Positions 48,301-48,826 of a stretch of 64,000 bases of DNA are shown one piece after another. A program made the position numbers. The stretch lies in NCBI RefSeq assembly GCF_988243305.1, contig NZ_OZ547136.1; one strand, given 5' to 3'. Numbering within the stretch: the first letter of the stretch is position 1; every line of letters starts with the position of its first letter.

Positions 48301-48826
48301 GAGTAAAACTGCGGATAAATTAGATAGATTGAATTTCATTTATACCTTTCCTTTTGTTAAAAAATCCAAGCAATATTGGCGATTATTTTTACATTCAGCT
48401 TTAACAAGTCACATTATTTAAATGAATAAAGCTGGTGTAGTTAACCACAGAAAAAAAATAAGAGATAGAATGGCTGGAAAATATTATATGAGCTGCTTGG
48501 TAATATAACTAAAAGAATCCATGCTCGCAATGATTGACTTTATATAAAAATACAGTCATTTGAAAACAAAGAGATTTATTTTAGACAGGATAACTGAAGA
48601 GTGGGGCAATATATAAATATAATAAATAATTTATTAGTTATTTATAATGCTTATTGTATGATACATACTCAGGTGAGAATCATTATTAAAAATTAATAAA
48701 TATGAATTATATATCGATGCTGTCTGTAAATTGTCATGACATATCGTTTATCTGATATAAAAATGCCGTGTGCCCATTAACGATAGCTTTGAGGGAACAC
48801 ACGGCAGTTATCACTTTGCAAACTTA

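What the first reader, a model, noticed from the sequence alone, without database searches (positions are those of the whole stretch)
48340..48760. About 420-bp AT-rich control region upstream of the fimbrial operon
The region is strongly AT-rich with A/T tracts, which is the usual signature of H-NS-silenced, horizontally acquired fimbrial promoters. I looked for an invertible phase switch like fimS and found no flanking inverted repeats or adjacent recombinase gene, so any regulation is more likely by xenogeneic silencing or trans-acting factors.
Basis: inference. Interest (0 to 1): 0.35.

Follow-up and report, generated by a model that had tools for sequence, protein, structure and literature searches.

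The report
AT-rich promoter region of Auf fimbriae
This is the AT-rich control region (plus the glgP terminator) in front of the already described Auf fimbrial operon of E. coli; it looks like an ordinary silenced fimbrial promoter, it is not a phase switch, and in this strain the operon behind it is broken by insertion sequences.

Summary
Positions 48340-48760 have 25.7% GC, the lowest 421-bp stretch in the 64-kb window (mean 51%).

The stretch is the 484-bp spacer between glgP and aufA, the first gene of the seven-gene Auf chaperone-usher fimbrial operon, which sits between glpD and glgP. This allele is the E. coli 042 type: 99.4% identical to 042, but only about 61% identical in the spacer to the CFT073/Nissle type.

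The spacer holds four features:
- the glgP terminator (48759-48806);
- a block conserved between alleles with the best promoter candidates (48472-48545);
- a T6-T8 polymorphic tract;
- a conserved translation-initiation block.

Neither kind of phase switch is present. There are no bracketing inverted repeats above chance, no recombinase, no inverted copy in 785 genomes (a fimS control did detect inversion), and no GATC sites.

Silencing by H-NS-type proteins is plausible but only indirectly supported. The sequence is AT- and TpA-rich. In 042, aufB rises 3.6-3.9-fold in an hns2 mutant. In CFT073, TosR induces auf about 40-fold and expression is higher at 37 °C. NsrR also binds at the aufA start in CFT073, but this allele carries a weakened site.

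The usher gene here is split by IS10 and an IS3-family element. This is an ordinary, already known feature.

The parts
48340..48823 (-). Whole aufA-glgP spacer (484 bp, 28.3% GC). All of it belongs to the variable auf segment, not to the core genome.
   Evidence: ORF map. GC. Homology to K-12 stops 3 nt after the glgP stop codon. 99.4% identical to E. coli 042.
48340..48760 (-).
48759..48806 (-). Intrinsic-terminator-like hairpin (48764-48806) followed by a U run (48759-48763), just downstream of glgP. It insulates auf from glgP transcription.
   Evidence: Inverted repeat I14. RNA fold -22.9 kcal/mol, z = -3.3. A structurally equivalent hairpin exists in the B2 allele (z = -5.7), and K-12 has a different terminator.
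48472..48545 (-). Block conserved between alleles that holds the best sigma-70 candidates. P1: -35 TTGCGA 48530..48525, 17-bp spacer, -10 TATATT 48507..48502. P2: -10 TATAAT 48488..48483 with a weak -35. These predict a leader of about 135-155 nt.
   Evidence: Consensus scan. Position-weight scan: P1 is the top hit on this strand at 11.2, but shuffles reach a mean of 10.6. The block is 73-80% identical between the 042-type and B2-type alleles, against 61% for the spacer as a whole and 51% at aufA third codon positions. TATAAT also aligns in the distant locus L007. Coordinates checked.
48451..48458 (-). Homopolymer tract (T8 on the aufA strand) whose length varies from T6 to T8 among 042-type genomes. 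It is absent from the B2 allele and lies downstream of both promoter candidates.
   Evidence: Alignment of 8 alleles of the 042 type. B2 comparison.
48340..48385 (-). Conserved 5'-leader and translation-initiation block with the Shine-Dalgarno sequence AAGGAAAGG (48345-48353).
   Evidence: 87-100% identical between the two E. coli alleles. ACAAAAGGAAAGGTA is invariant in Citrobacter freundii and in two metagenome loci.
48326..48348 (.). Orthologue of the 11-1-11 NsrR site mapped by ChIP-seq at the aufA start in CFT073. Here it reads AGATTGAATTTCATTTATACCTT, one mismatch from the CFT073 sequence, and overlaps the Shine-Dalgarno sequence and the ATG.
   Evidence: PMC5320621, Tables 2 and 4. A weight matrix built from that paper's sites scores the B2 version 15.5 bits and this version 9.1 bits; the lowest training site scores 11.8, and 62% of shuffles reach 9.1.
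47635..48339 (-). aufA, major subunit (234 aa). The protein is identical to that of E. coli 042 and 84% identical to that of Nissle.
38494..47514 (-). Rest of the operon: aufB chaperone (46762-47514); aufC usher in two pieces (45968-46720 and 41478-43385); aufD (40915-41487); aufE (40383-40907); aufF chaperone (39638-40441); aufG adhesin-like subunit (38494-39645).
   Evidence: Pfam. Identities to 042 and Nissle, and the usher break at codons 248-250. Annotation of 042 and Nissle.
43386..45971 (.). Insertion that breaks aufC: an IS10-like (ISVsa5-family) element, itself interrupted by an IS3-family element (orfA 45423-45749, orfB 44536-45426).
   Evidence: ORFs. Pfam DDE_Tnp_1 and rve. RefSeq feature names under the BLAST matches. 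IS end at 45971. A 3-codon overlap of the usher fragments fits a 9-bp target duplication.

Best explanation
The stretch is the cis-regulatory region of the Auf chaperone-usher fimbrial operon (aufABCDEFG, E. coli 042-type allele), together with the glgP terminator. Reading in the direction of transcription (minus strand), the order is as follows. The terminator at 48806-48759 ends glgP transcription. About 210 bp of very AT-rich DNA follow. Next comes a conserved block (48545-48472) that most likely carries the sigma-70 promoter. A leader of roughly 135-155 nt follows, ending in a strongly conserved ribosome-binding region.

Most likely mechanism (inferred): the AT- and TpA-rich DNA is coated by H-NS-family nucleoid proteins (H-NS, StpA and, in strains that have it, H-NS2/Hfp). 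This keeps the promoter nearly silent in culture. Expression rises when silencing is relieved, either by temperature or by AT-binding anti-silencers of the PapB family such as TosR. Site-specific factors may add to this: NsrR is ChIP-mapped at the aufA start in CFT073.

The region is not an invertible or Dam-methylation phase switch. In this genome the region is intact, but the operon it drives cannot make fimbriae, because the usher gene is split by nested insertion sequences.

Shown here: identity, anatomy, conservation pattern and absence of switch features. Inferred: promoter position, H-NS binding and anti-silencing.
For: Identity:
- The operon lies between glpD and glgP with gene order major subunit, chaperone, usher, two minor subunits, chaperone, adhesin-like subunit.
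- It is 98-100% identical at protein level to the E. coli 042 locus and 67-84% identical to the Nissle/CFT073-type auf locus.
- CFT073 c4207-c4214 are named aufA-G in PMC5956150 and PMC12890032. One close relative of AufA is named AufA by its source.

Composition:
- The spacer has the lowest GC in the window and a TpA excess. The operon has 41% GC against 52.7% elsewhere.
- An AT-rich upstream tract (22-27% GC) is also present at the Citrobacter freundii homologue, which sits in a different genomic context.

Promoter:
- The best candidate falls in the block that is most conserved between alleles saturated at silent sites.

Silencing (literature):
- aufB of 042 (EC042_RS19660) is up 3.6-fold at 25 °C and 3.9-fold at 37 °C in a delta-hns2 mutant (PMC7582179 Table 3A).
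- TosR overproduction raises aufA by log2 5.3, and TosR is predicted to antagonise H-NS/Lrp at AT-rich DNA (PMC5956150).
- auf is higher at 37 °C than at 23 °C but very low overall (PMC12890032).
- Many E. coli chaperone-usher fimbriae are cryptic and H-NS-repressed (PMC3559732).

No switch.
Against: - No H-NS binding or hns-mutant measurement for this promoter could be retrieved. The 042 RNA-seq table (PMC5861252, Table S1) is truncated in the held copy before the auf rows.
- auf genes are not among the most de-repressed genes listed for the 042 hns mutant. Other fimbrial genes there rise more than 200-fold.
- The caption of Table 3A in PMC7582179 says its genes are not up in an hns mutant, although the text says the opposite.
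- The H-NS high-affinity motif and A-tract phasing are no more frequent than the base composition predicts.
- The promoter prediction alone is not better than shuffled sequence, and no transcription start site was found in the literature available.
- TosR is encoded on a UPEC island. Whether the source strain has any PapB-family regulator is unknown; none is in the window.
Confidence: 0.7

Rival explanations
1. The spacer contains a fimS-like invertible promoter element flipped by a tyrosine recombinase encoded elsewhere, giving ON/OFF phase variation.
For: The spacer length (484 bp) and AT-richness resemble the fimE-fimA spacer. Weak AT-only inverted repeats exist, for example I4 (19 nt, 74% complementary, arms 253 bp apart).
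Against: - The longest exact inverted repeat with arms 100-460 bp apart is 8 nt; 98% of dinucleotide shuffles do as well or better.
- No recombinase is present in the locus in 042 or Nissle. There is no FimB/FimE homologue in the 64-kb window (best E = 3.3).
- 227 of 228 genomes of the 042 type and 558 of 558 of the B2 type carry the spacer as one collinear piece.
- The same test on fimS leaves 265 of 4721 genomes non-collinear, and one of them was verified as an inversion of the 322-bp core.
Confidence: 0.02
2. A pap-like epigenetic switch operates here: Lrp binds two sites whose GATC sequences are differentially methylated by Dam, assisted by PapI/PapB-type regulators.
For: The PapB-family protein TosR strongly induces auf in CFT073 (PMC5956150).
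Against: There is no GATC anywhere in 48340-48823; the nearest are inside glgP at 48838 and 48856. No papI or papB-like gene is in the locus or in the window.
Confidence: 0.02
3. The T6-T8 homopolymer at 48451-48458 is a slipped-strand contingency tract that tunes or switches auf expression.
For: Tract length differs among otherwise nearly identical 042-type alleles: T8 in the window, 042 and KE55, T7 in three genomes, T6 in two. In the minimum-free-energy fold of the leader, the U run pairs with the purine-rich Shine-Dalgarno region.
Against: - The tract lies downstream of both promoter candidates, not in a -35/-10 spacer and not in a reading frame.
- It is missing from the B2 allele.
- The leader fold is no more stable than shuffles (z = -0.29).
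- Differences of 1-2 nt in an 8-nt homopolymer are common neutral or assembly variation.
Confidence: 0.05
4. auf is expressed mainly by read-through from the upstream glgCAP transcript, which runs in the same direction. The AT-rich DNA would then be only a spacer.
For: glgP and aufA are co-oriented and adjacent. The glgP-auf linkage is also seen in a distant relative whose AufA is 70% identical (L007).
Against: - A terminator-like hairpin with a U run follows glgP in this allele. A structurally equivalent hairpin is kept in the B2 allele despite sequence change. L007 has a canonical GC-rich terminator with a T run.
- A conserved promoter-like block exists downstream of the terminator.
- The Citrobacter homologue has the AT-rich upstream tract without glgP.
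Confidence: 0.06
5. NsrR, the NO-sensitive repressor, is the main specific regulator. It binds across the Shine-Dalgarno sequence and ATG of aufA and blocks expression until nitrosative stress.
For: NsrR ChIP-seq in CFT073 gives a peak with its summit 3 bp from the c4214 start codon and an 11-1-11 motif there (PMC5320621). The motif lies in the block that is 100% conserved between alleles. Synonymous sites in the first 45 codons are unusually conserved (0.77 against 0.47).
Against: - c4214 was not among the 19 NsrR targets whose expression changed with NO in that study.
- In this allele one base of the motif differs, and the score falls from 15.5 to 9.1 bits. That is below every training site and within reach of 62% of shuffles. 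The Citrobacter and L007 versions score 10-11 bits.
Confidence: 0.1

Closest known systems
Upstream region of aufA (c4214) in uropathogenic E. coli CFT073 / Nissle 1917 (Auf fimbriae, B2-type allele)
   Same: Same locus (glpD-glgP), same seven-gene order, a spacer of similar length (494 against 484 bp), a terminator hairpin after glgP, a conserved promoter-like block and an identical 45-nt translation-initiation region.
   Different: The spacer is only about 61% identical overall, and proteins are 67-84% identical. The B2 allele lacks the T tract, has a full-scoring NsrR motif and carries three extra hypothetical genes after aufG. The window's usher is broken by insertion sequences.
Cryptic H-NS-repressed chaperone-usher fimbrial operons of E. 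coli K-12 (Korea et al. 2010, as cited in PMC3559732). These include Ycb, which PMC3559732 calls closely related to and mutually exclusive with Auf.
   Same: An AT-rich upstream region, very low expression in culture and no dedicated regulator gene in the operon.
   Different: H-NS repression has been shown experimentally for those operons. For auf only indirect data exist: the hns2 mutant, TosR and temperature.
fimS invertible switch of type 1 fimbriae
   Same: An AT-rich spacer of similar size in front of a major-subunit gene.
   Different: No 9-bp inverted repeats, no adjacent recombinases and no orientation polymorphism.
pap regulatory region (Dam/Lrp/PapI/PapB switch)
   Same: auf responds to a PapB-family protein (TosR), according to PMC5956150.
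   Different: No GATC sites and no papI or papB genes.

Membership tests
Auf chaperone-usher fimbrial operon (regulatory region of aufA) | Located between glpD and glgP, directly downstream of and co-oriented with glgP | tested here: met
   glpD is at 36467-37987 (+) and glgP at 48824-51271 (-), with the operon between them. 042 and Nissle have the same layout. PMC12928451 lists the auf operon in the glpD..glgP region.
Auf chaperone-usher fimbrial operon (regulatory region of aufA) | Seven genes in the order major subunit, chaperone, usher, two minor subunits, chaperone, adhesin-like subunit | tested here: met
   Pfam domains match in that order. However, the usher is split by insertion sequences at codons 248-250.
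Auf chaperone-usher fimbrial operon (regulatory region of aufA) | Sequence orthology to the CFT073-type Auf proteins | tested here: met
   All seven products are 67-84% identical to the Nissle locus. The AufA family is narrow, with 22 clusters, and one is named AufA by its source.
H-NS (xenogeneic) silenced promoter | AT content well above the genome average, in acquired DNA | tested here: met
   25.7% GC against 51%. The operon has 41% GC. It is present in 786 of 5426 genomes.
H-NS (xenogeneic) silenced promoter | H-NS occupancy of the region in vivo or in vitro | not testable with these tools
   No ChIP or gel-shift data for this locus were found in the searched literature. Motif and curvature proxies are uninformative.
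H-NS (xenogeneic) silenced promoter | De-repression when an H-NS-family gene is deleted | tested here: inconclusive
   Literature only. aufB of 042 is up 3.6-3.9-fold in delta-hns2 (PMC7582179). The effect of hns itself is unclear: caption and text conflict, and the full table is truncated in the held copy.
fimS-type invertible promoter switch | Inverted repeats of 9 bp or more bracketing the promoter | tested here: not met
   The longest is 8 nt; shuffles average 9.0.
fimS-type invertible promoter switch | Tyrosine recombinase gene(s) next to the switch | tested here: not met
   None in the locus. tblastn with FimB and FimE finds nothing in the window.
fimS-type invertible promoter switch | Both orientations found among sequenced genomes | tested here: not met
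   785 of 786 genomes are collinear. The fimS positive control detects inversion. One 042-type record with under 80% coverage was not inspected.
pap-type Dam/Lrp methylation switch | Two GATC sites within Lrp-binding regions upstream of the promoter | tested here: not met
   There are no GATC sites in 48340-48823.
NsrR operator | An 11-1-11 inverted repeat matching the NsrR matrix at ChIP-site strength | tested here: inconclusive
   The orthologous site is at 48326-48348. It scores 9.1 bits, against 15.5 for the ChIP-positive CFT073 version and 11.8 for the lowest training site.
Slipped-strand contingency locus | A variable homopolymer inside a promoter spacer or a reading frame | tested here: not met
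   The tract varies from T6 to T8 but lies in the predicted leader, outside both -35/-10 spacers. The promoter positions are themselves only predicted.

The most novel reading that the evidence does not exclude
The block that is 87-100% conserved from about 45 nt upstream of the ATG through the first 45 codons of aufA may be a regulatory module acting after transcription initiation. It is conserved even at synonymous sites and even in Citrobacter. Candidate mechanisms are a protein roadblock or operator over the Shine-Dalgarno sequence and ATG (NsrR in CFT073) or an H-NS downstream silencing element. The variable U6-U8 tract, which can pair with the Shine-Dalgarno sequence, might modulate it. 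This would be an undescribed control layer for a chaperone-usher fimbrial operon.
Probability: 0.08. Interest if true: 0.35.

Novelty: already known. Interest (0 to 1): 0.1.

Why it matters
It matters little. The result gives the operon its proper name (Auf, 042-type allele). It shows that the AT-rich DNA is a conventional upstream region of a fimbrial operon rather than a phase switch. It also shows that the operon in this genome is a recent pseudogene cluster behind an intact promoter region.

The practical value is for annotation. The left and right borders of the auf segment are now defined (about 38165 and 48820). The glgP terminator belongs to that segment. The allele carries a weakened version of the NsrR site that was ChIP-mapped in CFT073. 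None of this opens a long-standing question.

Tried and rejected
- Rfam scan of 47500-49500 at E up to 10: only noise.
- Small ORFs in the spacer: only 26-31 aa AT-rich frames, and nothing is conserved.
- H-NS motif TCGATAAATT with up to 2 mismatches, and AA/TT 10-11 bp periodicity: not above shuffles.
- Conserved RNA structure of the leader plus the 5' coding region in four diverged sequences: covariation term +1.94, and the stems are invariant, so there is no support. Leader fold z = -0.29.
- Relatives of AufA in one genome per species: none found.
- Exact search for the IS10/aufC junction to identify the source genome: no match. The junction is also absent from 5426 complete E. coli genomes, so the source strain stays unidentified.
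- Buckles et al. 2004, the original auf paper (PMID 15213132): not held, so I could not check whether a transcription start was mapped.
- 042 hns/hns2 RNA-seq Table S1 (PMC5861252): the held copy is cut at EC042_RS09xxx, before the auf rows. PMC7582179 has no held supplements.
- PMC7544231 and PMC5570504: no auf data.
- More metagenome AufA contigs (L014, L016): they turned out to be the two known E. coli alleles, and L015 has only 60 bp of upstream sequence.

Full report
**1. The observation.** The stretch 48340-48760 has 25.7% GC. Over all 421-bp windows of the 64-kb sequence the mean is 51.0% (sd 5.7). The absolute minimum (25.2%) falls on this place, and the next-lowest region elsewhere has 34%. 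It contains eleven A or T runs of four or more bases. TpA steps make up 12.4% of dinucleotides, against 4.7% in the window. So the feature is real and is the strongest compositional outlier in the window. It lies between the start of a 234-aa fimbrial subunit gene (47635-48339, minus strand) and the stop codon of glgP (48824, minus strand). The whole spacer is therefore 48340-48823.

**2. What the locus is.** Downstream of the spacer on the minus strand lie, in order: a PapD-type chaperone, an usher in two pieces, two fimbrial subunits, a second chaperone and a 383-aa subunit with a C-terminal Fimbrial domain. glpD follows. The same seven-gene operon sits between glpD and glgP in E. coli 042, where the spacer is 99.4% identical and the proteins 98-100% identical. 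A diverged form is found in Nissle 1917, CFT073 and other B2 strains, with proteins 67-84% identical. The CFT073 genes c4207-c4214 are aufABCDEFG, the Auf fimbriae (PMC5956150, PMC12890032, PMC12928451). A close relative of the window's AufA is named AufA by its source. So the finding is the upstream region of aufA, in the 042-type allele.

Among 5426 complete E. coli genomes, 228 carry this allele of the spacer and 558 carry the B2 allele. K-12 has neither. Its homology to the window stops 3 nt after the glgP stop codon on one side and at about 38165, after two REP-like elements behind glpD, on the other. The operon has 41% GC, against 52.7% for the rest of the window.

AufA relatives outside E. 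coli are rare:
- A Citrobacter freundii copy sits next to an ABC transporter and also has an upstream tract of 22-27% GC.
- A metagenome contig with 70% AufA identity again has the 3' end of glgP upstream.

The AT-rich upstream tract therefore travels with the operon, and the glgP linkage is old.

**3. The operon is dead in this genome.** The usher gene aufC is interrupted at codons 248-250. The inserted element is IS10-like (ISVsa5 family) and is itself interrupted by an IS3-family element. The two usher fragments overlap by three codons, as expected for a 9-bp target duplication. This junction is absent from all 5426 complete E. coli genomes and from the species-representative collection. 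The spacer itself is intact. It differs from 042 at three positions, none of them in the promoter-like block.

**4. Anatomy of the spacer, read on the aufA strand.**
- (a) Terminator, 48806-48759: a hairpin followed by UUUUU, right after glgP (fold -22.9 kcal/mol, z = -3.3). The B2 allele keeps an equivalent hairpin with a different sequence (z = -5.7). K-12 uses a different terminator. About 60 bp of the spacer are therefore the glgP terminator, carried on the auf segment.
- (b) 48758-48546: very AT-rich and poorly conserved between alleles (43-63% identity).
- (c) 48545-48472: the best-conserved upstream block, 73-80% identical between alleles. For comparison, third codon positions of aufA are only 51% identical. 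This block holds the top-scoring sigma-70 candidate on this strand (TTGCGA, 17 bp, TATATT; 48530-48502) and a perfect TATAAT at 48488-48483. The TATAAT also aligns in the distant contig L007. By score alone these are no better than the best hit in shuffled AT-rich sequence (11.2 against a mean of 10.6). The placement therefore rests on conservation and is a prediction.
- (d) 48458-48451: a T8 run that is T6, T7 or T8 in other 042-type genomes and is absent from the B2 allele.
- (e) 48385-48340: a leader and ribosome-binding block that is 87-100% identical between alleles. ACAAAAGGAAAGGTA is invariant in all homologues.

**5. Tests for a phase switch.**

*Inversion:*
- The longest exact inverted repeat with arms 100-460 bp apart is 8 nt. 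Dinucleotide shuffles average 9.0, and 98% do at least as well.
- No recombinase gene lies in the locus. FimB and FimE find nothing in the window.
- 227 of 228 genomes of the 042 type and 558 of 558 of the B2 type hold the spacer as a single collinear match.
- As a positive control, the same search with the K-12 fimE-fimA spacer left 265 of 4721 genomes non-collinear. One of these, inspected directly, has the 322-bp core inverted relative to fimE and fimA.

*Slipped-strand control:* the T tract varies, but it lies outside the predicted -35/-10 spacers and outside any reading frame.

**6. How it most likely works.** The composition is what H-NS-family proteins prefer, and the general rule that cryptic E. 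coli chaperone-usher operons are H-NS-repressed is established (PMC3559732). For auf itself the evidence is indirect:
- In E. coli 042, which has the same allele, EC042_RS19660 (aufB) rises 3.6-fold at 25 °C and 3.9-fold at 37 °C in a mutant of the third H-NS paralogue hns2 (PMC7582179 Table 3A).
- In CFT073, overproduction of the PapB-family protein TosR raises aufA by log2 5.3. The authors propose that TosR counteracts H-NS/Lrp at AT-rich DNA (PMC5956150).
- auf transcripts are higher at 37 °C than at 23 °C but remain very low (PMC12890032).
- auf was the only fimbrial system down-regulated by serum (PMC13245861).

Against a strong H-NS effect:
- auf genes are not in the published top lists for the 042 hns mutant, where other fimbrial genes rise more than 200-fold.
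- The caption of Table 3A says its genes are not up in hns, whereas the text says they are.
- The full table that would settle this is truncated in the held copy.
- Sequence proxies add nothing beyond composition: the H-NS nucleation motif and A-tract phasing are not enriched.

I rate silencing by H-NS-family proteins, with relief by temperature and AT-binding anti-silencers, as the most likely mechanism (about 0.6-0.7). It is not demonstrated.

**7. A specific factor mapped at this site in the other allele.** NsrR ChIP-seq in CFT073 gave a peak between c4214 and glgP. Its summit lies 3 bp from the c4214 start codon, over the 11-1-11 motif AAATTGAATTTCATTTATACCTT (PMC5320621). The orthologous sequence here is 48326-48348, AGATTGAATTTCATTTATACCTT, covering the Shine-Dalgarno sequence and the ATG.

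I built a weight matrix from the other sites in that paper's Table 4. The B2 version scores 15.5 bits and the window's version 9.1 bits. That is below the weakest training site (11.8) and is reached by 62% of shuffles. In the published study c4214 did not respond to NO. NsrR control is therefore possible in B2 strains and doubtful for this allele.

The site does fall in a block whose conservation is otherwise unexplained. Identical codons make up 77% of same-amino-acid positions in codons 1-45, against 47% in the rest of aufA. No conserved RNA structure explains this.

**8. Verdict.** The H-NS part is reasonable but only indirectly supported. The object is the regulatory region of a fimbrial operon described in 2004 (from my own knowledge: Buckles et al., Infect Immun 72:3890; the paper could not be read here). 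It sits in an allele present in some 4% of complete E. coli genomes, in front of an operon that insertion sequences have inactivated in this strain. It is ordinary and already known in kind, so interest is low.

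Noticed in passing
window 43386-45971 (within aufC, 41478-46720): The usher gene is split by an IS10-like element that is itself split by an IS3-family element (orfA 45423-45749, orfB 44536-45426). The usher fragments overlap by 3 codons, consistent with a 9-bp target duplication. This junction is not present in any of 5426 complete E. coli genomes or in the species-representative genomes.
   Followed up: partly
window 48451-48458: The homopolymer length varies (T6, T7 or T8 on the aufA strand) among otherwise almost identical 042-type alleles. In the leader's minimum-free-energy fold the U run pairs with the Shine-Dalgarno region, but the fold is not significant and the tract is absent from the B2 allele.
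   Followed up: partly
window 48204-48385: The last 45 nt of the leader and the first 45 codons of aufA are 87-100% identical between alleles that are saturated at silent sites elsewhere (identical-codon fraction 0.77 against 0.47). This is partly shared with Citrobacter. Recombination between alleles or a DNA/RNA-level function could explain it; no conserved RNA structure was found.
   Followed up: partly
window 47515-47660 (aufA stop to aufB start): The 120-bp aufA-aufB spacer (26.7% GC) folds into three strong hairpins, one of them a perfect 15-bp stem right after the aufA stop codon (-41.8 kcal/mol, z = -5.8). This looks like the attenuator or mRNA-stabiliser hairpins found after major-subunit genes in other fimbrial operons.
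   Followed up: partly
window 47635-48339 (AufA protein): The Pfam Fimbrial domain starts only at residue 62. After the signal peptide there is an extra acidic N-terminal segment of about 35 residues (GDASQFGGADTDWSTVDYPKLTDMD...), conserved in all AufA homologues including Citrobacter.
   Followed up: no
window 48759-48823 against K-12 (L002 4007-4134): Genomes with and without auf use different glgP terminators, and the variable segment begins 3 nt after the glgP stop codon. The left border is near 38165, after two REP-like elements behind glpD. K-12 has yzgL in place of the operon.
   Followed up: partly
L007 (Logan SRR10097273) 1-490; L004 (C. freundii CP057863) 2952-4000: A distant auf-like operon (AufA 70% identical) also follows glgP, with its own canonical terminator. 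The Citrobacter copy lies elsewhere, behind an ABC transporter and a spacer of about 1 kb. Both have AT-rich DNA upstream.
   Followed up: partly
L003 (Nissle) 1573-3661: B2-type loci carry three extra hypothetical genes (201, 255 and 236 aa) between aufG and glpD. They are absent from the window and from 042.
   Followed up: no
L001 (E. coli 042) 10564-11315: In 042 the first chaperone gene aufB is annotated as frameshifted, whereas it is intact (250 aa) in the window. Different genomes have thus inactivated the operon in different ways.
   Followed up: no
PMC7582179, Table 3A: The caption says the listed genes are not up-regulated in an hns mutant. The text says they are, and several of them also appear in that paper's own list of genes up in the hns mutant (Table 2A).
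   Followed up: no
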